A model generated the notes under the pieces. The model was not told the origin of the DNA. It ran no database searches and saw nothing but the letters and a program-made list of their open reading frames with translations. Both the position numbers and the translations under genes were made by a program. A stretch of DNA of 64,000 bases, from NCBI RefSeq assembly GCF_046119375.1, contig NW_027362772.1, positions 63,984,001 through 64,048,000 of the forward strand, in the 5' to 3' direction. Shown one piece after another: positions 16,173 to 62,800 of this stretch (its first letter is position 1; each line of letters begins with the position of its first letter). Source of the DNA: Phyllobates terribilis. Lineage: Eukaryota.

Positions 16173-17808
16173 TAAACTTTCTGTGAGAAGAGATGGGGGG
16201 AAGTCAGGACTCACAGGCTAGTAATCATGGGTGCCCTATTGATTGGATTTTTTGAGCCCTATAACAATTAAAATACTTAAAACGGCAGAGTTTTACACTA
16301 ATCCATCGCCACTCTTCAGTGCTGTTGCTGGGGATGAAGTGTGACCACTGCAGCCAGTCATTGGCCACAGTGAATCAATGGCTTCAGAAATGACCAACAT
16401 GTCACTTTTTTGTGGCCAGTAATCGGCTGCAGAGGTCATGCGCGATCCCTGCCAGAAAAGAAAGCGAAAATGAGGAACCTCAGAAGTCTGGGGAATCTGA
16501 AGGTGTTTTTTTTTTTTTTTTAAATCCCCTTAAATCATATTTTCTTTTAATTTTTAACCCCTTTAAATCATCTATAATAATAAATCTGCTTAGTTGTAAA
16601 ATAAGACCCTGTAAAAACAAAACATACGACAGATGTTTTCATTCCTGACTGCATCTTGATTGATGTATATATGTGACTATACCCCCAGACTTTGCCAGGA
16701 CACCCAAAACAAACACATTTATAGGTATGAAAAATAGATACAATAAATATAAAGTGTATATTGCAGTGGCTTCTTATTCACCTTTTTGGCCTTAACTTTA
16801 AAAAAAAAGGCGTAGAAACACTTTAACCAGGCGCCCAATAATGAAAATGTACATCTAGGACGGTTATCAGTTTATGCCCATTTCGGACATGCTGTCAGTA
16901 ATATTCCAGATTACTGAGCACATACAACGTTCCTGCTTTCTTTTACCAGTAAACAGCATGGAACTGGTAAAACGTTATCATCTACAGGCTGGACGAGGAG
17001 CTGTGCTAAACGCAGCTCTCAACATTGGAGAATCGCTCACTTCCATTGCAACCAATTGATGCCCGGTGATTTTAATGGGAACCCTGGTGCTGCCGCAGGG
17101 AAAATTAGTATCAGTGTTATAATTTCCCGTTGATGCCAGCTGATCGTAAAAGGATTAAGCAGCCGGGCCACCTCAATCAGCCGGTGTCTGGGGCCCCCCA
17201 AAATATGAATAGAGGTGGTCCAAACCCGACTGGTAAAGTTTCCTTAGCTATCTACAATCACATCTCTTGTTGAAAACCTTGGCGTGTGCGCGATTAGATT
17301 ATGCCACAAGCTGATACGCACGCTGCGCTTTATCATTCCAGCCGCTTTTAGTAGTACCACATAGACAAATTAGTATACTTATGTCTGATGGGTAGAGGCG
17401 TGATGGATGTGTGAAATGGCACTATACAGCCAAGATATACAGCGAGGAAGCTGATGGACCCTCCGTTTTTTTTTTTGTGTTTTTTTTTTAATTTTTATTT
17501 TTGATCTGCCACTTTTGGGAGCAAAAATTATAAAACATGACAAGCGCAGGTTCAGAAAAATGTAATGACAATTATTTTAGCAAACCTGAGTCGGGTATTA
17601 CATGTAAAATTAATGGGCTTGTCTGGTTTAGAAAACCAATTTTTTTTTATTAATACTATTATTTTAATGATATAGTTATATGTTGGAGTCTTCCACACAG
17701 TATCCTCATTTATTAGATGGTTACTGTGGGTGTCCCCCATTGATTTCAAGGAGTAATCCACTACTATGATATTAATGATGATATTAATGATCTTTCATTA
17801 GTATAGAT

Positions 17809-20317
17809 CAGGGATGTCAAACTCAAACACACAGAGAGCCAAAATTAAAATCTTGGACAAAGTCACTGGCCAACCAGTATACAGTATAATGGGCCCCACA
17901 TAGTCCTCCATACAGTATAATGGGCCCCACATAGTCCTCCATACAGTATAATGGCCCCACATAGTCCTCCATACAGTATAATGGTCGCACATAGTCCTCT
18001 ATACAGTATAATGGCCCCCACATAGTCCTCCATACAGTATAATAGGCCCCACATAGTCCTCCATACAATATAATGGCCCCACATAGTCCTCCATACAGTA
18101 TAATGGCCCCACATAGTCCTCCATACAGTATAATGGCCCCCACATAGTCCTCTATACAGAATAATGTTCCCCACATAGTCCTCCATACAGAATAATGGGC
18201 CCCACATAGTCCTCCATACAGAATAATGTTCCCCATATAGTCCGTCATACAGTATAATGGCCCCCACATAGTCCTCCATACAGTATAATGGCCCCCACAT
18301 AGTCCCCCATATAGTATAATGGCCCCACATAGTCCTTCATACAGTATAATGGCCCCACATAGTCCTCCATACAGAATAATGGCCCCCACATAGTCCTCTA
18401 TACAGAATAATGGGCCCCACATAGTCCTCCATACAGAATAATGTTCCCCACATAGCCCCCCATACAGTATAATGGCCCCCACATAGTCCTCCATACAGTA
18501 TAATGGCCCCCACATAGTCCCCCATACAGTATAATGGGCCCCACATAGTCCCCATTACAGAATAATTTTCCCCACATAGTTCTTCATACAATATAATGGC
18601 CCCACATAGTCCCCCATACAGTATAATGGCCCCCACATAGTCCTCCATACAGTATTATGGCCCCACATAGTCCTCCATACAGTATAATGTTCCCCACATA
18701 GTCGCCCATACAGTATAATGGCCCCACATAGTCCCCCATACAGTATAATGGCCCCACATAGTCCCTCATACAGTATAATGGCCCCCACATAGTCCTCCAT
18801 ACAGTATAATGGCCCCCACATAGTCCCCCATACAGTATAATGTTCCCCACATATTCCTCCATACAGTATAATGGCCCCCACATAGTCCTCCATACAGAAT
18901 AATGTTCCCCACATAGTTCTTCATACAGTATAATGTCCCCACATAGTCCTCCATACAGTATAATGTGTCCCACATAGTCCTCCATGTAGTATAATGGCCC
19001 CGCATAGTCGCCCATACAGTATAATGGCCCCACATAGTCCTCCATACAGTATAATGGCCCCCACATAGTCCTCTATACAGAATAATGTTCCCCACATAGT
19101 CCTCCATACAGAATAATGGGCCCCACATAGTCCTCCATACAGTATAATGGTCGCACATAGTCCTCCATACAGTATAATGGCCCCCACATAGTCCTCCATA
19201 CAGTATAATAGGCCCCACATAGTCCTCCATACAATATAATGGCCCCACATAGTCCTCCATGCAGTATAATGGCCCCACATAGTCCTCCATACAGTATAAT
19301 GGCCCCCACATAGTCCTCTATGCAGAATAATGTTCCCCACATAGTCCTCCATACAGAATAATGGGCCCCACATAGTCCTCCATACAGAATAATGTTCCCC
19401 ATATAGTCCCTCATACAGTATAATGGCCCCCACATAATCCTCCATACAGTATAATGGCCCCCACATAGTCCCCCATATAGTATAGTGGCCCCACATATTC
19501 CTTCATACAGTATAATGGCCCCACATAGTCCTCCATACAGAATAATGGCCCCCACATAGTCCTCTATAGAGAATAATGGGCCCCACATAGTCCTCCATAC
19601 AGAATAATGTTCCCCACATAGCCCCCCATACAGTATAATGGCCCCCACATAGTCCCCCATACAGTATAATGGCCCCCACATAGTCCTCCATACAGTATAA
19701 TGGCCCCCACATAGTCCCCCATACAGTATAATGTTCCCCACATATTCATCAATACAGTATAATGGCCCCCACATAGTCCTCCATACAGAATAATGTTCCC
19801 CACATAGTTCTTCATACAGTATAATGGCCCCACATAGTTCTCCATACAGTATAATGTGTCCCACATAGTCCTCCATATAGTATAATGGCCCCACATAGTC
19901 GCCCATACAGTATAATGGCCCCACATAGTCCCCCATACAGTATAATGGCCCCACATAGTTCCCCATACAGTATAATGGCCCCCACATAGTCCTCCATACA
20001 GTATAATGGCCACACATAGTCCCCCATACAGAATGTTCCCCACATAGTCCTCCATACAGTATAATGTGTCCCACATAGTCCTCCATACAGTACAATGGGC
20101 CCCACATAGTCCTCCATACAGTATAACGTGCACCACATAGTCCTCCATACAGTATAATGGCCCCCACATAGTCCTCCATACTGTATAATGGCCCCCACAT
20201 AGTCCTCCATACAGTATAATGGCCCCACATAGTCCTCCATACAGAATGGTGTCACGGACCAAATATAACCACCTGGCAGGCCAGATTTGCCCCACAGGCC
20301 AGAGTTTAACATGAATG
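17809..20317. mobile_element. hAT (Charlie-like) non-autonomous element filled by a minisatellite
   Basis: Left end cagggatgtcaaactc, right end gagtttaacatgaatg; flanks gtatagat / atgtagat fit the NTNTAGAN target pattern. Confidence 0.7.
17878..20245. repeat. 30-31-bp minisatellite, about 77 copies
   Basis: Unit tacagtataatggccccacatagtcctcca with variable C-runs. Confidence 0.97.
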
Positions 20318-21260: not shown

Positions 21261-21295
21261 TTAACATTTTTATCACTATCTACTTTTTTAATATA

Positions 21296-22925
21296 CAGTA
21301 CAGACCAAAAGTTTGGACACACCTTCTCATTTAAAGATTTTTCTGTATTTTCATGACTATGAAAATTGAACATTCACACTGAAGGCAGCAAAACTATGAA
21401 TTAACACATGTGGAATTATATAGCTAACAAAAAAATGTGAAACAACTGAAAATATGTCTTATAATCTAGGTTCTTCAAAGTAGCCACCTTTTGCTTTGAT
21501 GACTGCTTTGCACACTCTTGGCATTCTTTTGATGAGCTTCAAGAGGTAGTCACCGGAAATGGTCTTCCAACAATCTTGAAGGAGTTCCCAGAGATGCTTA
21601 GCACTTGTTGGCCCTTTTGCCTTCACTCTGAGGTCCAGCTCACCCCAAACCATCTCAATTGGGTTCAGGTCTGGTGACTGTGGAGGCCAGGTCATTTGGC
21701 GTAGCACCCCATCACTCTCGTTCTTGGTCAAATAGCCCTTACACAGCCTGGAGGTGTGTTTGGGGTCATTGTCCTGTTGAAAAATAAATGATGGTCCAAC
21801 TAAATGCAAACCGGATGGAATAGCATGCCGCTGCAAGATGCTGTGGTAGCCATGCTGGTTCAGTATGCCTTCAATTTTGAATAAATCCCCAACAGTGTCA
21901 CCAGCAAAGCACCCCCACACCATCACACCTCCTCCTCCATGCTTCACGGTGGAAACCAGGCATGTAGAGTCCATCCGTTCACCTTTTCTGCGTCGCACAA
22001 AGACACGGTGGTTGGAACCAAAGATCTCAAATTTGGACTCATCAGACCAAAGCACAGATTTCCACTGGTCTAATGTCCATTCCTTGTGTTCTTTAGTCCA
22101 AACAAGTCTCTTCTGCTTGTTGCCTGTCCTTAGCAGTGGTTTCCTAGCAGCTATTTTAACATGAAGGCCTGCTGCACAAAGTCTCCTCTTGGCAGTTGTT
22201 GAAGAGATGTGTCTGCTGCTAGAACTCTGTGTGACATTGACCTGGTCTCTAATCTGAGCTGCGCTTAACCTGTGATTTCTGAGGCTGGTGACTCGGATAA
22301 TCTTATCCTCAGAAGCAGAGGTGACTCTTGGTCCTCTTTTCCTGGGGCGGTCCTCAAGTGAGCCAGTTTCTTTGTAGCGATTTATGGTTTTTGCAACTGC
22401 ACTTGGGGACACTTTCAAAGTTTTCCCAATTTTTCGCATTGACTGACCTTCATTTCTTAAAGTAATGATAGCCACTCATTTTTCTTTACTTAGCTGCTTT
22501 TTTCTTGCCATAATACAAATTCTAACAGTCTATTCAGGAGGACTATCAGCTGTGTATCCACCTGACTTCTGCACAACACAACTGATGGTCCCAACCCCAT
22601 TTATAAGGCAAGAAATCCCACTTATTAAACCTGACAGGGCACACCTGTGAAGTGAAAACCATTTCCGGTGACTACCTCTTGAAGCTCATCAAGAGAATGC
22701 AAAGAGTGTGCAAAGCAGCCATCAAAACAAAAGGTGGCTACTTTGAAGAACCTAGAATATAAGACATATTTTCAGTTGTTTCACACTTTTTTGTTAAGTA
22801 TATAATTCCACATGTGTTAATTCATAGTTTTGATGCCTTCAGTGTGAATGTACAATTTTCAAAGTTATGAAAATACAGAAAAATCTTTAAATGAGAAGGT
22901 GTGTCCAAACTTTTGGTCTGTACTG
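21296..22925 (-). mobile_element. Full-length Tc1-superfamily transposon, DD38E (Intruder-type), 1630 bp
   Basis: TA TSD both sides; 268-bp TIRs (21296-21563, 22658-22925) starting cagtacagaccaaaagtttggacacac; transposase on the minus strand. Confidence 0.95.
21459..22511 (-). pseudogene. DD38E transposase, 350 codons, single premature TGA at codon 12
   Basis: ATG GCA AGA AAA AAG CAG CTA AGT AAA GAA AAA TGA GTG..., then open to EEPRL*. Motifs WSDESKF, FQQDNDPKH and SPDLNPIE, with 38 residues between the second D and E. The ORF-track start at 22475 is a GTG just after the stop. Confidence 0.9.
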
Positions 22926-23460
22926 TATATATATTACATTTTATGCAGGTGCAAGTTACAGTACGAATGTGAAAAATACGTAATTATCATTTTCTTCTTC
23001 ATCTGTCTACAAACACCTGGCTCTTAGTGACAGAACTGAAGGCAACGCTGTGTTTTTTTTTTTTTTGTTGGTTTTTTTTTAGTAAAGGTAATAATGTTAC
23101 AATTGTTCGAGAGCAACAAAAGATGACATTGATCTGTGTAGAAAATATTTTCTTTATGTCGTACGAAGAAGTTTGTTTCTCAGTTGAGACCAAATGGAAG
23201 TGACTTCAGTGTCGAGGCTGCCTGCATTAGATCCTCACAAAGGTGAAGGGAAGGAGCCTTGAAGACGGCTGTGCTCTCTTACTTATGTTTATAACACAAT
23301 ACTACAAGAAAGGTAACATTGTGGCAACTTTAAATGGAAGCTGTTGCTTGTTCTACTTAGTGCCCAGTGTACTTTTAATATTGTTTATTTTCCTGCAGAT
23401 TGATGTCTTTTTCTTTTGCAGTTTGAGCATAGAATTTGAGTGGGTGTGATTATTTCCTAC

Positions 23461-30445: not shown

Positions 30446-31773
30446 TGTTATGCACACGCCCGGGCTAAGCGGCGTGTGCGTGTGATTGGTAGTGATTCCA
30501 CTGGACCGTGCCGGAGAGTGAATGCCTGGAGGGGCGTGACTAGGTATTCACCCGATCCGACCAGGGTCGCACGACGGCATACGACGCCAGTGCACCAAGG
30601 AGGAACCGAGCAGAGGGACCAGGTGCTACTCCAGGACAGACCCCGGACACGGCTGTTGACCCACACAGGGGAATACAGGAACAGGCTGGTAGGCTGGCAC
30701 ACAGACTGGTGGGTATAGGCAGGCACGACTGGTATGCAGGCAGGCGGGTATGCAGGCAGGGGGGTAAAGACAAGCACAGCTAGAGTGCAGACAGGGAGGC
30801 ACTAGCAGGTAGGAACACAGGCGGGATAGGACCCAGTACACACCGGGACTCAGGAACAATACAGGCAGAGGGTTACAGGCAAGCACAGCTAGAGTGCAGA
30901 CAAGGCTGAGCAGGGAGGACAGGGCTCTGTTCACACGGAACAGACAGGAAGGGAAAGACAGAGCCAGATACTCACACAGTACTTGCAGAGACAACAAGCA
31001 GGAGTTAGGTACGAGTTCAGACTCTGCAGAAAAAGGAAGGGAACGGACATAGAGGCAAAACAGGTAAAGGACAGGAGAGAGTTCAGACTGGAACTGAGTG
31101 TACGGAGGAGACCGACACTGCAGAGGGATACAGGAGCGGGTCTGGGAATACGGCCCCCAGAAGGCGGAACGAACAGGCAAGGAGCGTGTTCAGACAGGAC
31201 AGACCAGAGAACACAAAAAGGACACAGTTCAGACACGGGAGCTGATACCGCAAAGCAGGAGACATACAGGACTCAGTTCAGACACGGGAGCTGAAACCGC
31301 AAAGCAGGAGACATACAGGACTCAGTTCAGACACGGGAGCTGATACCGCAAAGCAGGAGACATACAGGACACAGTTCAGACACGGGAGCTGATACCGCAA
31401 AGCAGGAGACATACAGGACTCAGTTCAGACACGGGAACTGATACAAAAAGCAGGAGACAAGAGACGGGACCTGGCACCTTCAGAGTGCAAGCACACACTG
31501 AAGGAAACACTATGCTCAGGCAGGGATAAAAGGGAGCTGCTGAGCTATATACCAAGTGACAGACAGCAATAGGCTGAGGACGCACAAGGGGTGTGACCCA
31601 CAGCAGGTACAAAAGGCAGGAAGTGATCGGGCGCCGCCCTTAAGCAGCAGAAACAGACACAAACAGACAGCATGGAGGGAAGCCAGAGAGACATTCTGGA
31701 CAGGAGATCAAGTGCGCCCTCTTGCACAGTGGGAGATGGACCACCATGCAAGGACGCCGCCAGGTATGTTACA
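30446..31773 (-). repeat. 3' LTR of copy 1
   Basis: Direct repeat of 33764-35091 at offset 3318; at least 3 substitutions seen; contains 49-bp tandem units starting at 31225, 31274, 31323, 31372 and 31421. Confidence 0.96.
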
Positions 31774-33620
31774 GTACCTCCCCCCTTACGCCCCCTCTTC
31801 TTCAGGCCTGCCAGAATCTTCCGCAGGGAATTCGAGGGCCAGTCGTTCACTGGGTTGGAGGGGGACAGAGACTTAAGGGTAATCTCTGCTTCGAGGTACA
31901 TCTTGTCAAGCTCACAGGAAGAAATAGACGGGTTATCAGGTACATAATGAGGAAAAGTCACTGTCTCTTTGTTATCTGGTGGTATCCCGGAGGATTCAGG
32001 AAACAACTGGAGGTCCTCCGCCGGGTCAGAAGAGTGCAGAGGCTCAGAGAAAACAACTGCTTCAGAGTACACTAGGTCGGACTCACTGGAGGAAGCAGGC
32101 GAGGTATCGGGTACCGAGTATAGGAAAGTCTCTGTCCATTCACCACCAGGTGGCACCCCGAAGGGTTCTGGAGACAGCTGGCGGTCCTCCGCCTGGTCAG
32201 AGGGGTGTAGAGACTCACGGGTAACCTCTGCTTCAGAGTACACTAGGTCGGACTCACTGGAGGAAGCAGGCGAGGTATCGGGTACCGAGTATAGGAAAGT
32301 CTCTGTCCATTCACCACCAGGTGGCACCCCGAAGGGTTCTGGAGACAGCTGGCGGTCCTCCGCCTGGTCAGAGGGGTGTAGAGACTCACGGGTAACCTCT
32401 GCTTCAGAGTACACTAGGTCGGACTCACTGGACGAAGCAAGCGAGGTATCAGATCCAGGATATAGGAAAGTCTCTGTCCATTCACCACCAGGTGGCACCC
32501 CGAAGGATTCTGAACACAACTGGAGGTCCTCCGCCTGGTCGGAGGGGTGTAGAGACTCAGGAGTAACCTCTGCTTCGGAGTACACTAAGTTGGACTCACT
32601 GGACGAAGCGAGCGAGGTATCAGGTACAGAGTATAGGAGAGTCTCTGTCCTTTCGCTACCAGGTAGCACCCCGAAGGGTTCAGGAGACAACTGGAGATCC
32701 TCCGCCTGGTCGGAGGGGTGTAGAGACTCGGAGGTAACTACCACTTTGGGGTACCCATTGTCAGGCTCACAGGACGAAGCGGACAAAGTATTGAGTACCG
32801 GGTGTAGAGAAGTCTCTCTCCATTTGTCATCGAGTGGTATCCCGGAGGGTTCAGGAGGCAACAGGGGATCCTCCGCCAGGTAGTAGAGGTGCACAGACTC
32901 TGAGGTAACCACAGCTTTGGAGCATCCTTGGACATGCACACCGGTTAAAGAGAAAGAAGCATCTGATGCCGGGTGCAGGAAGTTCTCCTGTGTGGAGTCT
33001 GGATGGGCAGAAGTCTCTTCGGCCAGGAGAACTGGTGCACTACCCACGCACATTACCCATTGGGGTTTCTCCGGGATACAGGGAGATGAAGCTTCAGTAG
33101 GGACTTCAAGGTTGGGGTCAGGAGGTCTCAGGGAGGACAGACCCTGGCGTGACGGCTTGCCTCTAAGTCTAGCACGTCTGGACTGCCTCTTGAGGTTGAG
33201 AGAAGTATTCCGGAAAGCGTAGTCACCCTGTGAGGATTCTGGGTGGGCAGTAGTCTCATTGGGCTGGAGGACTATTGCGCTACCCACACACATTACCCGT
33301 CGGGGCTGCTCCGGGATATTGGGAAGTGAAGCTTCAGCAGGGGCTTCAGAGTTAGGGTCCTCGAAGACCATACGAAAGGCCACCAGGAAGGCCTGCAGGT
33401 CAAGGATGACAGGATCCCATGCTTCCCATAGGGGGGTGACCCATTTCAAGGCATCACCCGCTAGGTAGTCAATCATAAAGGCCACTTTAGCCCAATCGGA
33501 AGGAAAATAGAGAGGGTAGGCCTTAAAGTGTAGCATGCATTGCTCCACAAATGCACGACACTGTCTTGGATCCCCATAGTAACGTGGCGGATCCGCAGGA
33601 ACGAGGGCTGATAGATCCAT
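31545..33620 (-). CDS. 691-aa Gag capsid-NTD (Retrotrans_gag/DUF4939-like) plus acidic 57-aa repeat protein, copy 1
   Basis: Intact ATG-to-TAG ORF. N-terminus PPRYYGDPRQCRAFVEQC...SDWAKVAFMIDYLAGDALKWVTPLW...FLVAFRMVFEDP matches the Sushi/PEG10/RTL8/LDOC1 capsid-NTD pattern. Expression untested. Confidence 0.75.
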   Translation of the reverse strand: MDLSALVPADPPRYYGDPRQCRAFVEQCMLHFKAYPLYFPSDWAKVAFMIDYLAGDALKWVTPLWEAWDPVILDLQAFLVAFRMVFEDPNSEAPAEASLPNIPEQPRRVMCVGSAIVLQPNETTAHPESSQGDYAFRNTSLNLKRQSRRARLRGKPSRQGLSSLRPPDPNLEVPTEASSPCIPEKPQWVMCVGSAPVLLAEETSAHPDSTQENFLHPASDASFSLTGVHVQGCSKAVVTSESVHLYYLAEDPLLPPEPSGIPLDDKWRETSLHPVLNTLSASSCEPDNGYPKVVVTSESLHPSDQAEDLQLSPEPFGVLPGSERTETLLYSVPDTSLASSSESNLVYSEAEVTPESLHPSDQAEDLQLCSESFGVPPGGEWTETFLYPGSDTSLASSSESDLVYSEAEVTRESLHPSDQAEDRQLSPEPFGVPPGGEWTETFLYSVPDTSPASSSESDLVYSEAEVTRESLHPSDQAEDRQLSPEPFGVPPGGEWTETFLYSVPDTSPASSSESDLVYSEAVVFSEPLHSSDPAEDLQLFPESSGIPPDNKETVTFPHYVPDNPSISSCELDKMYLEAEITLKSLSPSNPVNDWPSNSLRKILAGLKKRGRKGGGTVTYLAASLHGGPSPTVQEGALDLLSRMSLWLPSMLSVCVCFCCLRAAPDHFLPFVPAVGHTPCASSAYCCLSLGI

Positions 33621-33763
33621 CTGGACGGGTGCGTAATTCGCCTGGAACTCAGCTAAAGGGGGAAAAAAATTTATTTATTTTATTTTAATGCATGTATTCG
33701 CTGGAAAAACTTCTCAAAGAGCGAAGGCCGTGGGGCTCAACGGGAACCATGGCCTGAGCATGC

Positions 33764-35091
33764 TGTTATGCACACGCCCGGGCTAAGCGGCGTGTGCGTG
33801 TGATTGGTAGTGATTCCACTGGACCGTGCTGGAGAGTGAATGCCTGGAGGGGCGTGACTAGGTATTCACCCGATCCGACCAGGGTCGCACGACGGCATAC
33901 GACGCCAGTGCACCAAGGAGGAACCGAGCAGAGGGACCAGGTGCTACTCCAGGACAGACCCCGGACACGGCTGTTGACCCACACAGGGGAATACAGGAAC
34001 AGGCTGGTAGGCTGGCACACAGACTGGTGGGTATAGGCAGGCACGACTGGTATGCAGGCAGGCGGGTATGCAGGCAGGGGGGTAAAGACAAGCACAGCTA
34101 GAGTGCAGACAGGGAGGCACTAGCAGGTAGGAACACAGGCGGGATAGGACCCAGTACACACCGGGACTCAGGAACAATACAAGCAGAGGGTTACAGGCAA
34201 GCACAGCTAGAGTGCAGACAAGGCTGAGCAGGGAGGACAGGGCTCTGTTCACACGGAACAGACAGGAAGGGAAAGACAGAGCCAGATACTCACACAGTAC
34301 TTGCAGAGACAACAAGCAGGAGTTAGGTACGAGTTCAGACTCTGCAGAAAAAGGAAGGGAACGGACATAGAGGCAAAACAGGTAAAGGACAGGAGAGAGT
34401 TCAGACTGGAACTGAGTGTACGGAGGAGACCGACACTGCAGAGGGATACAGGAGCGGGTCTGGGAATACGGCCCCCAGAAGGCGGAACGAACAGGCAAGG
34501 AGCGTGTTCAGACAGGACAGACCAGAGAACACAAAAAGGACACAGTTCAGACACGGGAGCTGATACCGCAAAGCAGGAGACATACAGGACTCAGTTCAGA
34601 CACGGGAGCTGAAACCGCAAAGCAGGAGACATACAGGACTCAGTTCAGACACGGGAGCTGATACCGCAAAGCAGGAGACATACAGGACACAGTTCAGACA
34701 CGGGAGCTGATACCGCAAAGCAGGAGACATACAGGACTCAGTTCAGACACGGGAACTGATACAAAAAGCAGCAGACAAGAGACGGGACCTGGCACCTTCA
34801 GAGTGCAAGCACACACTGAAGGAAACACTATGCTCAGGCAGGGATAAAAGGGAGCTGCTGAGCTATATACCAAGTGACAGACAGCAATAGGCTGAGGACG
34901 CACAAGGGGTGTGACCCACAGCAGGTACAAAAGGCAGGAAGTGATCGGGCGCCGCCCTTAAGCAGCAGAAACAGACACAAACAGACAGCATGGAGGGAAG
35001 CCAGAGAGACATTCTGGACAGGAGATCAAGTGCGCCCTCTTGCACAGTGGGAGATGGACCACCATGCAAGGACGCCGCCAGGTATGTTACA
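33764..35091 (-). repeat. 5' LTR of copy 1
   Basis: Followed on the minus strand by gc + atgctcaggc (33761-33752), the non-tRNA PBS. Confidence 0.96.
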
Positions 35092-36691
35092 TAAAGCATC
35101 GGCCAACTCCTGGACAGTCTGTGGTGCAACGTTGGTGGATGGAGCGAGACATGATGTCCCAGATGTGCTCAATCGGATTCAGGTCTGGGGAACGGGCGCA
35201 CCAGGCCATAGCTTCAATGCCTTCATCTTGCAGGAACTGCTGACACACTCCATCCACATGAGGTCTGGCATTGTCCTGCATTAGGAGGAATCCAGGGCCA
35301 ACCACACCAGCATATGGTCTCACAAGGGGTCTGAGGATCTCATCTCGGTACCTAATGGCAGTCAGGCTACCTCTGGCGAGCACATGGAGGGCTGTGCGGC
35401 CCTCCAAAGAAATGCCACCCCACACCATTACTGACCCACTGCCAAACCGGTCATGCTGAAGGATGTTGCAGGCAGCAGATCGCTCTCCACGGCGTCTCCA
35501 GACTCTGTCACGTCTGTCACATGTGCTCAGTGTGAACCTACTATCATCTGTGTAGAGCACAGGGCGCCAGTGGCGACTTTGCCAATCCTGGTGTTCTGTG
35601 GCAAATGCAAAGCGTCCTGCACGATGTTGGGCTGTGAGCACAACCCCCATCTGTGGAAGTCAGGTCCTCAGACCACCCTCATGGAGTCGGTTTCTAACCG
35701 TTTGTGCAGACACATGCACATTTGTGGCCTGCTGGAGGTCATTTTGCAGGGATCTGGCAGTGCTGCTCCTGTTTCTCCTTGCAAAAAGGCGGAGGTAACT
35801 GTCCTGCTGCTGGGTTGTTGCTCTCCTACGGCCCCCTCCACGTCTCCTGGTGTGCTGGCCTGTCTCCTGGTAGCGCCTCCAGCCTCTGGACACTACGCTG
35901 ACAGGCACAGCAAACCTTCTTGCTATAGCTCGCATTGATGTGCCATCCTGGATGAGCTGCACTACCTGAGCAACTTCTGTGGGTTGTAGAGTCCGTCTCA
36001 TGCTACCACGAGTGTGAAAGCACAACCAACATTCAAAAGTGACCAAAACATCAGCCAGAAAGCATTGGTACTGAGATGTGATCTGTGGTCCCCACCTGCA
36101 GAACCACTCCTTTATTGAGGGTGTCTTGATAATTGCCAATAATTTCCATCTATTGTCTATTTCATTTGCACAACAGGATGTGAAATTGATTGTCAATCAG
36201 TGTTGCTTCCTGAGTGGACAGTTTTATTTCACAGAAGTTTGATTTACTTGGAGTTATATTCTGTTGTTTAAGTGTTCCCTTTATTTTTTTTATCAGTGTA
36301 TTATGTTTTGTACCTTTACTCAAAAAAGTTGATAAGAATCATGACTTTCTCAGCGAATGATCACATGATTCCAATGATACCTTCCTTCTAATGTACTATA
36401 GCATATTCTTTAATGTTGGGAACTATGTAACATCACTGCACCAATTAGAATTATCAAGTAGAAAACTACAATTGTGTGATTTGGAAGCCCTACTAACTAC
36501 CATGTTTCCCCAAAAATAAGGCAGGATCTTATATTATTTTTTGCTTCGAAAGATGGGTCAGAGCTTATATTCAGGGGATGTCTTATTTTTTTCCATGAAA
36601 AGCAATCCACATTTATTCTTGAACAAAAAAAATCAACATTTATTCAAATATAATCATGTCACGACATATACACACACACACGTATATACAT

Positions 36692-38614: not shown

Positions 38615-40140
38615 CAGTGGGGGAAAAAAATATTTGATCCCTTGCTGTTTTTGTAAGTTTGCCCACTGACAAAGACATGAACAATCTATAATTTTAAGGG
38701 TAGGTTAATTTTAACATTGAGAGATAGAATATCCCCAAAAAAAAAATTCAAGAAAATCACATTGTATAAATTAGATAAATTTATTAGCATTTTGCAGTGA
38801 GAAATAAGTATTTGATCCCTGTGGCAAACAACACTTAATACTTGGTGGCAAAACCCTTGTTGGCAAGCACAGCAGTCAGACGTTTTTTGTAGTTGATGAT
38901 GAGGGTTGCGCACATGTCAGGAGGAGTTTTGGTCCACTCCTCTTTGCAGATCATCTCTAAATCATTCAGATTTTGAGACTGTCACTTGGCAACTCGGAGC
39001 TTCAACTCCCTCCATAAGTTTTCTATGGGATTAAGGTCTGGAGACTGGCTAGGCCAATCCATGACCCTAATGTGCTTCTTTTTGAGCCACTCCTTTGTTG
39101 CCTTGCCTTGTATGTTTTGGGACATTGTCTTGCTGGAAGACCCAGCCACGACCCATTTTTAATGTCCTGGCGGAGGGAAGGAGGTTGTCACTCAGAATTT
39201 TACGGTACATGGCTCCATCCATTCTCCCATTAATACAGTGAAGTATTCCTGTGCCCTTAGCAGAGAAACACCCCCAAAACATAATGTTTCCACCTCCATG
39301 CTTGACAGTGGGGATGGTATCATAGGCACCATTTTTCTTCCTCCAAACACGGCGAGTTGAGTTAATGCCACAAAGCTCAATTTTTGTCTCGTCTGACCAC
39401 AGCACCTTCTCCCAATAACTCACATAATTATCCAGGTGTTCATTGGCAAACTTCAGACGGGCCTGCACATGTGCCTTCTTGAGCAGGGGGACCTTGCGGG
39501 CACTGCAGAATTTTAAACCTTTCAGGCGTAATGTGTTACCAATGGTTTTCTTGGTGATTCTGGTCCCAGCTGCCTTGAGATCATTAACAAGTTCCCCCCG
39601 TGTAGTTTTAGGCTGATCTCTCACCTTCCTCATGATCAAGTATACCCCACGAGATGAGATTTTGCATGGTGCCCCAGATCGATGCCTCAGCGTCTTACTT
39701 ATGATTTTGTAGCCCGTTCCAGCTATGTGCAGGTCTATGATCTTGTCCCTGACATCCTTAGAAAGCTCTTTGGTCTTGCCCATGTTGTAGAGGTTAGAGT
39801 CTGACTGATTAATTGAGTCTGTGGACAGGAGTCTTTTATATAAGTGACTATGTAAGACAGCTGTCTTTAATGCAGGTAACGAGTTGAATAGGAGCGTCTA
39901 ACTGGTCTGTAGGAGCCAGAACTCATAATGGTTTGTAGGGGATCAAATACTTATTTCTCACTGCAAAATACAAAAAAAATGTCTAATTTATACAATGTGA
40001 TTTTCTTGATTTTTTTTTTGGGATATTCTATCTCTCAAAGTTAAAATTAACCTACCCTTAAAATTATAGACTGTTCATGTCTTTGTCAGTGGGCAAACTT
40101 ACAAAAACAGCAAGGGATCAAATACTTATTTCCCCCACTG
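38615..40140 (-). mobile_element. Tc1 IR/DR-type transposon (Frog Prince/Sleeping Beauty-like), internally deleted and frameshifted
   Basis: TA|cagtggggga ... tcccccactg|TA, about 215-bp TIRs. ORF 39067-39783 reads [17 protein letters not shown]...WSDETKIEL...FQQDNVPKH, with a deletion after ISKTL. Confidence 0.93.
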
Positions 40141-54067: not shown

Positions 54068-54273
54068 TATATATAATCTGTCATATCTATGTTTTCGTAT
54101 AAATGAGCATTAGATATATTGGAGATTGCTGCGGTTTATTTTATTGCGTCTGATTCACATCTTCAGGAGAGAGTATACCTAATACACATGTCAAGTGTTC
54201 AATGTGATAAACTGTGATTTTACTGAATTTGTGTGGATGAAACCGAAACCCAATTGACCCCCATTATAGTTAT

Positions 54274-55626
54274 TGTAACATACCTGGCGGCGTCCTTGCA
54301 TGGTGGTCCATCTCCCACTGTGCAAGAGGGCGCACTTGATCTCCTGTCCAGAATGTCTCTCTGGCTTCCCTCCATGCTGTCTGTTTGTGTCTGTTTCTGC
54401 TGCTTAAGGGCGGCGCCCGATCACTTCCTGCCTTTTGTACCTGCTGTGGGTCACACCCCTTGTGCGTCCTCAGCCTATTGCTGTCTGTCACTTGGTATAT
54501 AGCTCAGCAGCTCCCTTCTATCCCTGCCTGTGCATAGTGTTTTCCTTCAGTGTGTGCTTGCACTCTGAAGGTGCCAGGTCCCGTCTCTTGTCTCCTGCTT
54601 TTTGTATCAGTTCCCGTGTCTGAACTGAGTCCTGTATTTCTCCTGCTTTGTGGTATCAGCTCCCGTGTCTGAACTGAGTCCTGTATGTCTCCTGCTTTGC
54701 GGTATCAGCTCCCGTGTCTGAACTGAGTCCTGTATGTCTCCTGCTTTGCGGTATCAGCTCCCGTGTCTGAACTGACTCCTTTCTGTGTTCTCTTGTCTGT
54801 CCTGTCTGAACACGCTCCTAGCCTGTTCCTCTCGCCTTCTAGTGGCCGATTTCCTAGACCCGCTCCTGTGTCTGGTCTGTCCTGTCTGAACACGCTCCTT
54901 GCCTGTTCGTTCCGCCTCTCTGGGGGCCGTATTCCCAGACCCGCTCCTGTATCCCTCTGCAGTGTCGGTCTCCTCCGTACACTCAGTTCCAGTCTGAACT
55001 CTCTCCTGTCCTTTACCTGTTTTGCCTCTATGTCCGTTCCCTTCCTTTTTCTGCAGAGTCTGAACTCGTACCTAACTCCTGCTTGTTGTCTCTGCAAGTA
55101 CTGTGTGAGTATCTGGCTCTGTCTTTCCCTTCCTGTCTGTTCCGTGTGAACAGAGCCCTGTCCTCCCTGCTCAGCCTTGTCTGCACTCTAGCTGTGCTTG
55201 CCTGTAACCCTCTGCCTGTATTGTTCCTGAGTCCCGGTGTGTACTGGGTCCTATCCCGCCTGTGTTCCTACCTGCTAGTGCCTCCCTGTCTGCACTCTAG
55301 CTGTGCTTGCCTTTACCCCCCTGCCTGCATACCCGCCTGCCTGCATTCCAGTCGTGCCTGCCTATACCCTCCAGTCTGTGTACCAGCCTGTTCCTGTATT
55401 TCCCTGTGTGGGTCAACAGCCGTGTCCGGGGTCTGTCCTGGAGTAGCACCTGGTCCCTCTGCTCGGTTCCTCCTTGGTGCACTGGCGTCGTATGCCGTCG
55501 TGCGACCCTGGTCGGATCGGGTGAATACTTAGTCACGCCCCTCCAGGTATTCACTCTCCGGCACGGTCCAGTGGAATCACTATCAATCACACGCACACGC
55601 CGCTTAGCCCGGGCGTGTGCATAACA
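54274..55626 (+). repeat. 5' LTR of copy 2
   Basis: tgtaacatacc ... gtgtgcataaca; repeated at 57619-58971, at least 2 substitutions seen. Confidence 0.96.
54496..54535 (+). promoter_or_regulatory. LTR TATA box and predicted transcription start / self-primer GCCTGTGCAT (54526-35)
   Basis: TATATA at 54496; the 10-mer complementary to the PBS starts exactly 30 nt downstream. Confidence 0.7.
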
Positions 55627-55628
55627 GC

Positions 55629-55638
55629 ATGCACAGGC
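55629..55638 (+). other. Non-tRNA primer-binding site ATGCACAGGC
   Basis: Starts 2 nt after the LTR's terminal CA; lacks the TGG of tRNA PBSs; perfect reverse complement of 54526-35. Confidence 0.8.
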
Positions 55639-55771
55639 CATGGTTCCCGTTGAGCCCCACGGCCTTCGCTCTTTGAGAAGTTTTTCCAGCGAATACATGC
55701 ATTAAAATAAAATAAATAAATTTTTTTTTCCCCCTTTAGCTGAGTTCCAGGCGAATTACGCACCCGTCCAG

Positions 55772-57847
55772 ATGGATCTATCAGCCCTCGTTCCTGCGGA
55801 TCCGCCACGTTACTATGGGGATCCAAGACAGTGTCGTGCATTTGTGGAGCAATGCATGCTACACTTTAAGGCCTACCCTCTCTATTTTCCTTCCGATTGG
55901 GCTAAAGTGGCCTTTATGATTGACTACCTAGCGGGTGATGCCTTGAAATGGGTCACCCCCCTATGGGAAGCATGGGATCCTGTCATCCTTGACCTGCAGG
56001 CCTTCCTGGTGGCCTTTCGTATGGTCTTCGAGGACCCTAACTCTGAAGCCCCTGCTGAAGCTTCACTTCCCAATATCCCGGAGCAGCCCCGACGGGTAAT
56101 GTGTGTGGGTAGCGCAATAGTCCTCCAGCCCAATGAGACTACTGCCCACCCAGAATCCTCACAGGGTGACTACGCTTTCCGGAATACTTCTCTCAACCTC
56201 AAGAGGCAGTCCAGACGTGCTAGACTTAGAGGCAAGCCGTCACGCCAGGGTCTGTCCTCCCTGAGACCTCCTGACCCCAACCTTGAAGTCCCTACTGAAG
56301 CTTCATCTCCCTGTATCCCGGAGAAACCCCAATGGGTAATGTGCGTGGGTAGTGCACCAGTTCTCCTGGCCGAAGAGACTTCTGCCCATCCAGACTCCAC
56401 ACAGGAGAACTTCCTGCACCCGGCATCAGATGCTTCTTTCTCTTTAACCGGTGTGCATGTCCAAGGATGCTCCAAAGCTGTGGTTACCTCAGAGTCTGTG
56501 CACCTCTACTACCTGGCGGAGGATCCCCTGTTGCCTCCTGAACCCTCCGGGATACCACTCGATGACAAATGGAGAGAGACTTCTCTACACCCGGTACTCA
56601 ATACTTTGTCCGCTTCGTCCTGTGAGCCTGACAATGGGTACCCCAAAGTGGTAGTTACCTCCGAGTCTCTACACCCCTCCGACCAGGCGGAGGATCTCCA
56701 GTTGTCTCCTGAACCCTTCGGGGTGCTACCTGGTAGCGAAAGGACAGAGACTCTCCTATACTCTGTACCTGATACCTCGCTCGCTTCGTCCAGTGAGTCC
56801 AACTTAGTGTACTCCGAAGCAGAGGTTACTCCTGAGTCTCTACACCCCTCCGACCAGGCGGAGGACCTCCAGTTGTGTTCAGAATCCTTCAGGGTGCCAC
56901 CTGGTGGTGAATGGACAGAGACTTTCCTATATCCTGGATCTGATACCTTGCTTGCTTCGTCCAGTGAGTCCGACCTAGTGTACTCTGAAGCAGAGGTTAC
57001 CCGTGAGTCTCTACACCCCTCTGACCAGGCGGAGGACCGCCAGCTGTCTCCAGAACCCTTCGGGGTGCCACCTGGTGGTGAATGGACAGAGACTTTCCTA
57101 TACTCGGTACCCGATACCTCGCCTGCTTCCTCCAGTGAGTCCGACCTAGTGTACTCTGAAGCAGAGGTTACCCGTGAGTCTCTACACCCCTCTGACCAGG
57201 CGGAGGACCGCCAGCTGTCTCCAGAACCCTTCGGGGTGCCACCTGGTGGTGAATGGACAGAGACTTTCCTATACTCGGTACCCGATACCTCGCCTGCTTC
57301 CTCCAGTGAGTCCGACCTAGTGTACTCTGAAGCAGTTGTTTTCTCTGAGCCTCTGCACTCTTCTGACCCGGCGGAGGACCTCCAGTTGTTTCCTGAATCC
57401 TCCGGGATACCACCAGATAACAAAGAGACAGTGACTTTTCCTCATTATGTACGTGATAACCCGTCTATTTCTTCCTGTGAGCTTGACAAGATGTACCTCG
57501 AAGCAGAGATTACCCTTAAGTCTCTGTCCCCCTCCAACCCAGTGAACGACTGGCCCTCGAATTCCCTGCGGAAGATTCTGGCAGGCCTGAAGAAGAGGGG
57601 GCGTAAGGGGGGAGGTACTGTAACATACCTGGCGGCGTCCTTGCATGGTGGTCCATCTCCCACTGTGCAAGAGGGCGCACTTGATCTCCTGTCCAGAATG
57701 TCTCTCTGGCTTCCCTCCATGCTGTCTGTTTGTGTCTGTTTCTGCTGCTTAAGGGCGGCGCCCGATCACTTCCTGCCTTTTGTACCTGCTGTGGGTCACA
57801 CCCCTTGTGCGTCCTCAGCCTATTGCTGTCTGTCACTTGGTATATAG
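55772..57847 (+). CDS. 691-aa Gag capsid-NTD plus acidic 57-aa repeat protein, copy 2
   Basis: Intact ORF; three amino-acid differences from copy 1 in the track (SESFG>R, DTSL>DTLL, YVPD>YVRD); the last ~75 codons lie in the 3' LTR. Confidence 0.75.
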   Translation: MDLSALVPADPPRYYGDPRQCRAFVEQCMLHFKAYPLYFPSDWAKVAFMIDYLAGDALKWVTPLWEAWDPVILDLQAFLVAFRMVFEDPNSEAPAEASLPNIPEQPRRVMCVGSAIVLQPNETTAHPESSQGDYAFRNTSLNLKRQSRRARLRGKPSRQGLSSLRPPDPNLEVPTEASSPCIPEKPQWVMCVGSAPVLLAEETSAHPDSTQENFLHPASDASFSLTGVHVQGCSKAVVTSESVHLYYLAEDPLLPPEPSGIPLDDKWRETSLHPVLNTLSASSCEPDNGYPKVVVTSESLHPSDQAEDLQLSPEPFGVLPGSERTETLLYSVPDTSLASSSESNLVYSEAEVTPESLHPSDQAEDLQLCSESFRVPPGGEWTETFLYPGSDTLLASSSESDLVYSEAEVTRESLHPSDQAEDRQLSPEPFGVPPGGEWTETFLYSVPDTSPASSSESDLVYSEAEVTRESLHPSDQAEDRQLSPEPFGVPPGGEWTETFLYSVPDTSPASSSESDLVYSEAVVFSEPLHSSDPAEDLQLFPESSGIPPDNKETVTFPHYVRDNPSISSCELDKMYLEAEITLKSLSPSNPVNDWPSNSLRKILAGLKKRGRKGGGTVTYLAASLHGGPSPTVQEGALDLLSRMSLWLPSMLSVCVCFCCLRAAPDHFLPFVPAVGHTPCASSAYCCLSLGI
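57605..57615 (+). other. Polypurine tract
   Basis: (gaagaagagggggcgt)aaggggggagg-tac|tgtaaca, immediately before the 3' LTR. Confidence 0.85.
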
Positions 57848-58971
57848 CTCAGCAGCTCCCTTCTATCCCTGCCTGTGCATAGTGTTTTCCTTCAGTGTGT
57901 GCTTGCACTCTGAAGGTGCCAGGTCCCGTCTCTTGTCTCCTGCTTTTTGTATCAGTTCCCGTGTCTGAACTGAGTCCTGTATTTCTCCTGCTTTGCGGTA
58001 TCAGCTCCCGTGTCTGAACTGAGTCCTGTATGTCTCCTGCTTTGCGGTATCAGCTCCCGTGTCTGAACTGAGTCCTGTATGTCTCCTGCTTTGCGGTATC
58101 AGCTCCCGTGTCTGAACTGACTCCTTTCTGTGTTCTCTTGTCTGTCCTGTCTGAACACGCTCCTAGCCTGTTCCTCTCGCCTTCTAGTGGCCGATTTCCT
58201 AGACCCGCTCCTGTGTCTGGTCTGTCCTGTCTGAACACGCTCCTTGCCTGTTCGTTCCGCCTCTCTGGGGGCCGTATTCCCAGACCCGCTCCTGTATCCC
58301 TCTGCAGTGTCGGTCTCCTCCGTACACTCAGTTCCAGTCTGAACTCTCTCCTGTCCTTTACCTGTTTTGCCTCTATGTCCGTTCCCTTCCTTTTTCTGCA
58401 GAGTCTGAACTCGTACCTAACTCCTGCTTGTTGTCTCTGCAAGTACTGTGTGAGTATCTGGCTCTGTCTTTCCCTTCCTGTCTGTTCCGTGTGAACAGAG
58501 CCCTGTCCTCCCTGCTCAGCCTTGTCTGCACTCTAGCTGTGCTTGCCTGTAACCCTCTGCCTGTATTGTTCCTGAGTCCCGGTGTGTACTGGGTCCTATC
58601 CCGCCTGTGTTCCTACCTGCTAGTGCCTCCCTGTCTGCACTCTAGCTGTGCTTGCCTTTACCCCCCTGCCTGCATACCCGCCTGCCTGCATTCCAGTCGT
58701 GCCTGCCTATACCCTCCAGTCTGTGTACCAGCCTGTTCCTGTATTTCCCTGTGTGAGTCAACAGCCGTGTCCGGGGTCTGTCCTGGAGTAGCACCTGGTC
58801 CCTCTGCTCGGTTCCTCCTTGGTGCACTGGCGTCGTATGCCGTCGTGCGACCCTGGTCGGATCGGGTGAATACTTAGTCACGCCCCTCCAGGTATTCACT
58901 CTCCGGCACGGTCCAGTGGAATCACTATCAATCACACGCACACGCCGCTTAGCCCGGGCGTGTGCATAACA
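57619..58971 (+). repeat. 3' LTR of copy 2
   Basis: Direct repeat of 54274-55626. Confidence 0.96.
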
Positions 58972-59084
58972 GTTATAACCCTTTGGTATTCAAAATGTAT
59001 AGTTATGTACTAAATTTTAAAACACTGGGTGCCAACCTGACACTGCCTGTAGTCTACTTAGGTATGCTGATGACAAGGGTAAGC

Positions 59085-61733: not shown

Positions 61734-62800
61734 TGTAACGGGTCTGGGAGGCGGAACCTCTGAGCTACTATACAAGGGGGCGGTCCTTGTAAGGGAGCGG
61801 GTGGCGACCAGGGAAGACGGGCTGGAAGTCTCAGCAGGTGAACGGGACAGTCTCTGAGTGAACGGGCCAGTCTCTGAGTGAACGGGCTGGAGGTCACGGC
61901 AAGTGACCGGGGCAGTCTCTAGGTATAGGGTTGGTACGACCTGTGGCGGCTGAAGATAGACGTGAGCTCCCAGGTGAGCAGGCGAGAGTCTCTGGATGAA
62001 CGGGTGGTCACAGCATGTGACGGCGGAGCCTCCAGGAAGACCAGCGGACAGGCGACAGATGAGCGCTCCCAGGTGAGCGGGCAGAAGTCTCTGGACAGGC
62101 GGGTGGTCACAGCACGTGACGGCAGAGCCTCCGGGTAGGCAAGCAGACTGGTAGCAGATGAGCGCTCCCAGGTGAGCGGGCAGGAGTCACTGGACAGGCA
62201 GGTGGTCACAGCACGTGACGGCGGAGCCTCCAGGTAGGCTAGCAGGCAGGTAGCAGATGTGCGCTCCCAGGTGAGCGGGCAAGCTGGTCCATAGACAGAC
62301 TGACAGGAGTTGGAAGGCAGACCGTCGGACCACAGGCAAGCAGGCAGGTAGCTGATGAGCGCTCCCAGGTGAGCGGGCAGGCTGGTCCTTAGACAGACTG
62401 ACAGGATTAGTAAGGCAGACCGTCGGACCTCAGACTAGCAGGCAGGTAGCAAGTAATCAGGCAGGAATCTGGCAGGTAACTGGCAGGTAACTGGCAACGG
62501 GACCTGAGGGCTGAAGCACAGGTGAGACACAGGTGCAAACAACATTGCTCGGGCACCTCCATTTTGGAGGAGGTGCCTTATATATGGTAAAGTCCTCCGG
62601 CCATTGGCCGGGGACTCCTTAGGACGGCGCGCGCGGCCCCTTTAAGAGGGAGGGAGAGCGCGCGCGCGCGCGCCCTAAGCGTAGTGGCCGGGAAGGAGCG
62701 CGCGCTGCCAGCAGAGTGGGAGAGGGACGCCGGGCACGGAGCAGAGCGGTGAGGGGAACAGCGTCCCTGCCTAGCAGAGGGCAGGGACGCCGGCACTACA
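61734..62800 (-). mobile_element. Solo LTR, 1067 bp
   Basis: ATGAA|tgtaacg ... cactaca|ATGAA; TATATAA on the minus strand at 62584-78; GC-rich U3 with a (GC)n run; internal tandem repeats. Confidence 0.92.

What the first reader, a model, noticed from the sequence alone, without database searches (positions are those of the whole stretch)
55772..57847. Mobile element encoding a capsid-NTD-only Gag fused to a long acidic tail, an RTL8/LDOC1-like design still inside LTRs
Seen: residues ~10-89 match the Ty3/gypsy capsid N-terminal domain and stop at VFEDP. No capsid C-terminal domain, zinc knuckle or pol motif follows; instead there are ~500 Ser/Glu/Pro/Asp-rich residues. The frame is intact in both copies. 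Established: mammalian RTL8 and LDOC1 are sushi-derived genes made of essentially this domain plus an acidic end, and RTL8 has been reported to bind and antagonise PEG10 particles. Inference: a satellite retroelement whose protein could co-assemble with or modulate helper Gag capsids, converging on a domesticated-gene architecture. The intact ORF may simply reflect youth: the three protein differences give no evidence of selection.
Basis: partly seen in the sequence, partly recalled or inferred. Interest (0 to 1): 0.8.

Follow-up and report, generated by a model that had tools for sequence, protein, structure and literature searches.

The report
Half-capsid satellite retrotransposon under selection
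This is one of more than 5,500 young copies of a jumping gene that lacks all copying enzymes but keeps, under selection while it spreads, a protein made of half a viral shell plus a long acidic tail, which likely helps its own RNA get into the shells of related complete elements.

Summary
The 691-aa ORF lies in a 4.7-kb LTR element (target-site duplication GTTAT) with at least 5,553 copies in a 10.57-Gb genome. It is a non-autonomous, self-priming Tf1/sushi-type derivative. Residues 11-86 are a Ty3-type capsid N-terminal domain; no C-terminal domain, zinc knuckle or enzyme follows. Youth does not explain the intact frame. The ORF is open to the 3' LTR in 86 of 92 copies and the 6 breaks are private. 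Variants shared between copies show purifying selection on the domain (dN/dS 0.25; private variants 0.71). About 245 copies carry two tandem domains that diverged under selection (0.37-0.49). The tail stays open (0 shared stops, about 9 expected) but drifts in sequence. Corrections: the last 76 codons run into the 3' LTR and are neutral, and residues 599-617 are the end of pol. A splice acceptor 32 nt before the ATG is used in RNA. Selection acts during transposition, not after insertion, which points to a self-serving role, most likely docking its RNA on helper capsids (inferred, 0.45). Translation and binding are not shown.

The parts
54269..54273 (+). 5' target-site duplication GTTAT (repeated at 58972-58976)
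54274..55626 (+). 5' LTR, 1,353 bp, TGTAAC...ATAACA, with internal 49-, 80- and 51-bp tandem repeats
54496..54501 (+). TATA box, 30 nt before the self-primer
   Evidence: function inferred
54526..54535 (+). Predicted self-primer (5' end of the RNA), complementary to the primer-binding site
   Evidence: co-varies with the PBS across 88 scored copies, p 6e-10, and in the autonomous clade
55627..55639 (+). Primer-binding site, non-tRNA type; this copy carries the rare variant (66 exact hits against 5,487)
55640..55705 (+). Short upstream ORF from the old gag start codon (21 aa here; 19-25 aa and any frame among copies)
   Evidence: same position as gag ATG in autonomous relatives
55706..55739 (+). 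A/T tract, polypyrimidine tract and splice acceptor AG (exon starts at 55740)
   Evidence: YAG|CTGAG in 88 of 92 copies; two host exons spliced to it in run X1
55772..56041 (+). Capsid N-terminal domain, aa 1-90, under purifying selection
56042..56469 (+). Linker with an 80-aa duplication and a basic patch; near-neutral in sequence
56470..57414 (+). 171-bp (57-aa) acidic Ser/Glu/Pro tandem repeat, 5.5 units; unit number varies in frame
57566..57618 (+). Remnant of the pol C-terminus, overlapping the polypurine tract
   Evidence: 81-97% DNA identity over about 40 nt in 19 of 20 chromodomain elements fetched; 2,591 such pol ends
57619..57847 (+). Incidental read-through of the ORF into the 3' LTR (aa 617-691)
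   Evidence: shared-variant dN/dS 0.98; stop position varies between lineages
57619..58971 (+). 3' LTR, 2 mismatches to the 5' LTR
30446..35091 (-). Second complete copy (ORF 31545-33620, duplication CTTTA, common PBS/primer pair)

Best explanation
This is a non-autonomous, predicted self-priming sushi-type LTR retrotransposon whose half-capsid protein is kept by selection during transposition and likely works for its own RNA, by docking on capsids that related complete elements build. Shown: structure, copy number, absence of pol, lineage-level selection on the domain, an open but drifting tail, a working splice acceptor, young intact gag-pol relatives with matching priming and polypurine signals. 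Inferred: the RNA starts about 30 nt after the TATA box, folds back on its primer-binding site and is copied and integrated by helper enzymes. The domain would fold and join a helper Gag lattice while the ribosome is still translating about 500 further residues, so the tail acts as a spacer that holds the RNA at the assembling particle. With no C-terminal domain it cannot build shells alone.
For: 86 of 92 distinct copies open to within 17 nt of the 3' LTR; the 6 breaks are each private. Domain: shared variants 29 synonymous / 24 non-synonymous, dN/dS 0.25, p 6e-7 against site counts; private 10/24, 0.71; shared against private p 0.027. Tandem domains a and b within one ORF: dN/dS 0.37-0.49, p 0.0025-0.027 in 3 copies of one subfamily, so the constraint post-dates loss of the C-terminal domain. 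Tail: 252 shared variants, 8.8 stops expected, none shared (P about 1.5e-4), yet distant repeat units differ at dN/dS 0.6-1.3. Shared indels break frame freely in the leader (16 of 20) and U3 (7 of 9); in the ORF real shared frameshifts occur only in the last 12 nt. Private stops match neutral decay (6.4 expected). RTL8 enters PEG10 particles through NTD contacts (PMC11684626 passages), so such half-capsids can join a lattice.
Against: No protein evidence. The closest full Gag domains found are only 45-58% identical, and no chromodomain element with this LTR start was found. The acceptor could yield a spliced mRNA without the primer-binding site, whose protein would act in trans; no LTR-to-acceptor joint was seen in 2 lay-ups, but these were contigs. 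Constraint on tail sequence is weak (0.62 shared against 0.92 private, p 0.13). Repeat alignments and recombination make the counts non-independent.
Confidence: 0.45

Rival explanations
1. The protein acts in trans as an RTL8- or Ty1 p22-like modulator: made from a spliced RNA, it enters helper particles and disturbs or redirects their assembly, favouring the satellite family or limiting the helper.
For: Functional acceptor 32 nt before the ATG; same half-capsid design as RTL8, which lowers PEG10 particle release (PMC11684626 passages); p22 is an element-encoded truncated Gag inhibitor (abstract listings).
Against: A shared good in a family of thousands should let ORF-less lineages spread; none was found among 92 copies. 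The helper clade is abundant (2,591 pol ends) and includes a young intact copy.
Confidence: 0.2
2. What is selected is translation itself: a long ORF running to the 3' LTR protects or routes the RNA (for example against nonsense-mediated decay), and the protein does little.
For: The tail stays open but drifts in sequence and length. A paper title states that translation from non-autonomous IAP determines its transposition (reference line only).
Against: It does not explain amino-acid conservation of the domain, nor purifying divergence of tandem domains a and b.
Confidence: 0.2
3. The protein is kept because the host needs it, as for zebrafish Bik-1/2 Gag.
For: Bik-2 is a non-autonomous gag-only family needed in development (PMC12067270 passages); the family's sequence is in runs shown or guessed to be RNA.
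Against: Inserted copies decay neutrally; no single conserved locus was seen. A few source loci under host selection are not excluded.
Confidence: 0.08
4. The ORF is a functionless relic that is open only because the copies are young.
For: Median LTR divergence 0.15% in 49 position-ordered copies.
Against: Subfamilies differ by dS up to 0.5 in the domain with dN/dS about 0.3; no shared stop among 252 tail variants.
Confidence: 0.05

Closest known systems
Tf1/sushi group chromoviruses (Ty3/gypsy), including the autonomous clade in this genome (L219)
   Same: TG...CA LTRs, 5-bp duplication, self-priming site, polypurine tract inside the pol end, homologous capsid NTD (45-58%), U5 stretch 71-82% alike
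   Different: No coiled coil, capsid CTD, zinc knuckle, protease, RT, integrase or chromodomain; own LTR family; new repeat tail
TR-GAG elements of plants (PMC4350172, passages)
   Same: Non-autonomous LTR elements with a single gag-derived ORF, recently active
   Different: TR-GAG1 keeps a Gag precursor with a zinc finger; this keeps half a capsid, sometimes doubled; the word 'selection' does not occur in that paper's main text
Zebrafish Bik-1/Bik-2 and chicken ENS-1 (PMC12067270, passages)
   Same: Vertebrate non-autonomous LTR families encoding only a Gag-derived protein
   Different: Those are endogenous retroviruses, and Bik-1/2 have shown host roles; this is sushi-type with an NTD-only protein and no tested role
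Mammalian half-capsid genes RTL8 and LDOC1 (PMC11684626, PMC10516033, passages)
   Same: Sushi-type capsid N-lobe without C-lobe
   Different: Those are fixed host genes of about 110-150 aa (length recalled); this is mobile, in thousands of copies, with a 400-700 aa tail; independent origin inferred
Ty1 p22/p18 restriction factor (abstract listings)
   Same: Element-encoded fragment of capsid
   Different: p22 is the C-terminal half, from an internal transcript of an autonomous element

Membership tests
LTR retrotransposon | TG...CA direct terminal repeats, 5-bp target-site duplication, polypurine tract | tested here: met
Tf1/sushi group | PBS complementary to the 5' end of own RNA (self-priming) | tested here: met
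   10-bp complement 30 nt after TATA; co-variation 21/12 against 2/53, p 6e-10; criterion from PMC4600332 and PMC6317226 passages. Transcript start not measured
Tf1/sushi group | Gag and pol end related to chromodomain-bearing gypsy elements | tested here: met
Autonomous Ty3/gypsy element | Full capsid, nucleocapsid and pol (PR, RT, RH, IN) | tested here: not met
   internal region 1.4-2.5 kb in all copies scored; no Pfam hit in aa 91-615
TR-GAG-like (gag-only non-autonomous LTR element) | Single ORF of gag origin, no pol domains, multi-copy | tested here: met
TR-GAG-like (gag-only non-autonomous LTR element) | Gag precursor able to form particles (both capsid lobes, zinc finger) | tested here: not met
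   homology to full Gag ends at the NTD boundary
RTL8/LDOC1 half-capsid genes | Capsid N-lobe only | tested here: met
RTL8/LDOC1 half-capsid genes | Fixed host gene without LTR mobility, conserved between species | tested here: not met
   at least 5,553 dispersed young copies with target-site duplications
RTL8/LDOC1 half-capsid genes | Binds and antagonises a full Gag capsid | not testable with these tools
   needs co-IP and particle assays

The most novel reading that the evidence does not exclude
A vertebrate satellite retrotransposon has evolved a dedicated capsid-hijacking adaptor: one or two capsid N-lobes on a long flexible tether that, while still being translated, plugs its own RNA into a distant helper's shell. 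It would be a living, still-mobile source of RTL8/LDOC1-type half-capsid genes, showing that this design can arise for selfish reasons before any domestication.
Probability: 0.35. Interest if true: 0.82.

Novelty: new variant of a known kind. Interest (0 to 1): 0.63.

Why it matters
Half-capsid proteins are known as domesticated mammalian genes and as restriction factors. Here one is maintained by selection inside a very successful mobile element, with natural one- and two-domain versions and a young intact candidate helper in the same genome. That makes two open questions testable: how non-autonomous LTR RNAs win packaging, and whether capsid truncation can precede domestication. The primer/PBS co-variation is also natural-population evidence for self-priming in a vertebrate sushi element.

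Tried and rejected
The search for homologous proteins found nothing at E<=0.001 in two searches; weak, word-index limited. phmmer over 1.84 billion representatives: 1,170 hits at E<=0.001; all 150 listed match only the domain region, none the tail; among these 150, 84 continue into the CTD and the 11 with a truncated match and a tail of 100 aa or more are not acidic. Single-sequence PDB search gave chance hits only; Foldseek gave no E<=0.001, top rows capsids. Complex prediction of helper capsid with the domain: no answer (score 0.01, alignments not used); no evidence either way. Same-LTR autonomous partner: 3 hits to a chromodomain-plus-LTR pattern, none with the expected pol end in the printed match, not read further; all 11 PBS variants led to the same ORF; of 9 unexplained LTR pairs 7 were ordinary family members, 1 two LTRs without internal region, 1 held a nested autonomous element with different LTRs; Gag families found through an FDDPN...LRQG pattern are further away (34-49%). 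No run on record as RNA was listed; depth from contigs says nothing on expression. No LTR-to-acceptor joint seen; the two X2 loose ends at the acceptor were not traced. In the tree three rows named aut_L204, aut_L219 and aut_L225 are satellite domains (name collision); read so, all satellite domains form one group at 91/89, below the starred level. Five loci were dropped as duplicates before counts (L039, L049, L050, L057, L067); L039 is frameshifted where its twin L036 is not. The 7 'shared frameshifts' include 4 alignment artefacts in copies whose ORF is open. Literature: 'non-autonomous + gypsy + truncated gag + frog' 0 papers; 'DUF4939' 0; two searches listed nothing describing such an element (listings only). 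Saito 2008 could not be read. Repbase/Dfam were not available, so a family entry may exist. Earlier scan findings: none.

Full report
Anatomy. The ORF (55772-57847, 691 aa) lies in an element of 5' LTR 54274-55626, internal region 55627-57618 and 3' LTR 57619-58971, with duplication GTTAT and 2 LTR mismatches. A second copy lies at 35091-30446 on the minus strand; the proteins differ at three codons. Residues 11-86 are a Ty3-type capsid N-terminal domain by Pfam, by profile match to Ty3 Gag 32-107, by 45-58% identity to the matching part of full Gag proteins in the same genome and by a confident model that fits capsid lobes. Homology to Gag stops where the C-terminal domain would begin. Then come a linker, 5.5 units of a 57-aa acidic repeat, the last residues of a chromovirus pol over the polypurine tract, and 76 codons inside the 3' LTR.

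Family. The genome has 10.57 Gb; an amphibian host is my inference from size and repeats. Exact patterns count 5,487 + 66 LTR-PBS junctions, a lower bound because a variant LTR end is missed, 21,233 LTR starts and 245 junctions typical of two-domain copies. I analysed 92 distinct copies: the window's two, best matches to this copy's leader, 50 copies taken in position order on C1, and unexplained LTR pairs. All have a 1.4-2.5 kb internal region without pol. Median LTR divergence in the position-ordered set is 0.15%, maximum 1.2% (49 of 50 scored).

Priming. No tRNA-type site follows the LTR. The PBS is complementary over 10 bases to a motif 30 nt after the TATA box. Copies with the rare PBS base mostly carry the matching LTR base (21 of 33 scored), copies with the common base almost never do (2 of 55), p 6e-10, over 17 sequence backgrounds. 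The autonomous clade shows the same pairing with compensating changes (L219, L270, L271, L272, L281). This is the Tf1/sushi self-priming arrangement (PMC4600332 and PMC6317226, passages). The 12 unmatched rare-PBS copies are exceptions; mutation after insertion would explain them.

Selection. The ORF is open to within 17 nt of the 3' LTR in 86 of 92 copies (46 of 50 in the position-ordered set); five nonsense changes and one frameshift are private, close to the 6.4 stops expected from LTR ages. In 75 in-frame copies, single-step variants shared by two or more copies give dN/dS 0.25 in the domain (p 6e-7), 0.64 linker (p 0.10), 0.62 repeats (p 0.004), 0.47 C-terminal part (p 0.10) and 0.98 in the LTR part; private variants give 0.71, 0.98, 0.92, 0.98 and 0.49, the last an unexplained excess of synonymous changes (p 0.04). 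Shared against private is significant only for the domain (p 0.027). Four of 92 copies have two tandem domains, about 70% identical, with dN/dS 0.37-0.49 between them; several one-domain types are patchworks of the two. As all satellite domains group apart from autonomous Gag, this constraint arose after the capsid was halved. The tail has 252 shared variants and no shared stop where 8.8 are expected (approximate, repeats may be counted twice), while its older repeat units differ near neutrally. Stops and frameshifts at the polypurine tract and in the LTR part are shared by many copies, so that part is incidental.

Expression. No run on record as RNA was listed. In guessed-RNA runs, four contigs have long foreign ends exactly at the acceptor. 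The two from X1 map uniquely to host sequence followed by GT donors, with sense-oriented family copies 10.5 and 50 kb downstream. So X1 holds spliced RNA and the acceptor works. Whether the element's own LTR splices to it, and whether the ORF is translated, is open. The leader holds a short uORF at the old gag start in any frame, which marks 55772 as the likely start.

Helper. No autonomous element with this LTR was found. The nearest clade has other LTRs but similar PBS, polypurine tract and U5 stretch; it has 2,591 pol ends and at least one young intact copy. It is the likely helper (inference).

Mechanism. Selection on variants that passed through transposition, with neutral decay afterwards, is the signature of a protein that benefits the RNA encoding it. 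A conserved and sometimes doubled lattice-forming domain on an open but drifting spacer suggests co-translational docking onto helper capsids (0.45). Rivals: trans-acting RTL8/p22-like modulation from spliced RNA (0.2), selection on translation itself (0.2), host benefit (0.08), youth alone (0.05).

Comparison. It works like a gag-only satellite (TR-GAG, Bik, ENS-1) and shares the design of RTL8/LDOC1 without being a member. No tail relative appeared among the 150 best of 1,170 hits, and four literature searches listed no such element; repeat databases and supplements were not seen. Papers seen: passages of PMC11684626, PMC10516033, PMC4350172, PMC12067270, PMC4600332, PMC6317226, PMC4340606, PMC7411935; Ty1 p22 as abstract listings; Saito 2008 and Butler 2001 as reference titles only. 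Verdict: new variant of a known kind, interest 0.63.

Noticed in passing
L332 about 8900-9420 (-), G000:C5 near 141.455 Mb: Old degenerate relative that still has the N-terminal coiled-coil part of gag before a related domain and a related post-domain linker; a possible earlier stage of this family. One copy seen.
   Followed up: partly
L219:1712-8420: Young autonomous chromodomain element (gag, GGGAAAC slippery site, 1,166-aa pol frame, 5 LTR mismatches, duplication CTCAG) inserted in the LTR of a family member.
   Followed up: yes
L314/L317 (C14) and L315/L331 (C5): Host exons with GT donors splice into sense-oriented intronic copies 10.5 kb and 50 kb downstream; the family can act as a gene trap.
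   Followed up: partly
window about 61734-62800 (-): Probable solo LTR of the autonomous sushi clade (86-88% to L219/L189 LTRs).
   Followed up: partly
window 21291-22930: Tc1-type DNA transposon with 277-bp inverted repeats and a 326-aa open transposase frame.
   Followed up: no
window 35087-35650 and 39067-39783: Further Tc1-like transposase frames by eye (not scanned); copy B of the element abuts the first.
   Followed up: no
window about 45400 onward and 17800-20300: 44-bp tandem array (53 family members listed) and a long simple-repeat array giving spurious ORFs.
   Followed up: no
G000:C1 880484525, 880488021, 880495013 and 86492389-86504703: Head-to-tail runs of the element at 3.3-4.2 kb spacing, probably sharing LTRs (L195 is one such).
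   Followed up: no
window aa 127-150 of the ORF (about 56150-56220): Basic patch preceded by a stretch that may be a decayed zinc-knuckle region; by-eye lead only.
   Followed up: no
window 56470-57414 (-): One antisense frame over the repeat is open for about 250-420 codons in many copies; probably a by-product of the 171-bp period.
   Followed up: no
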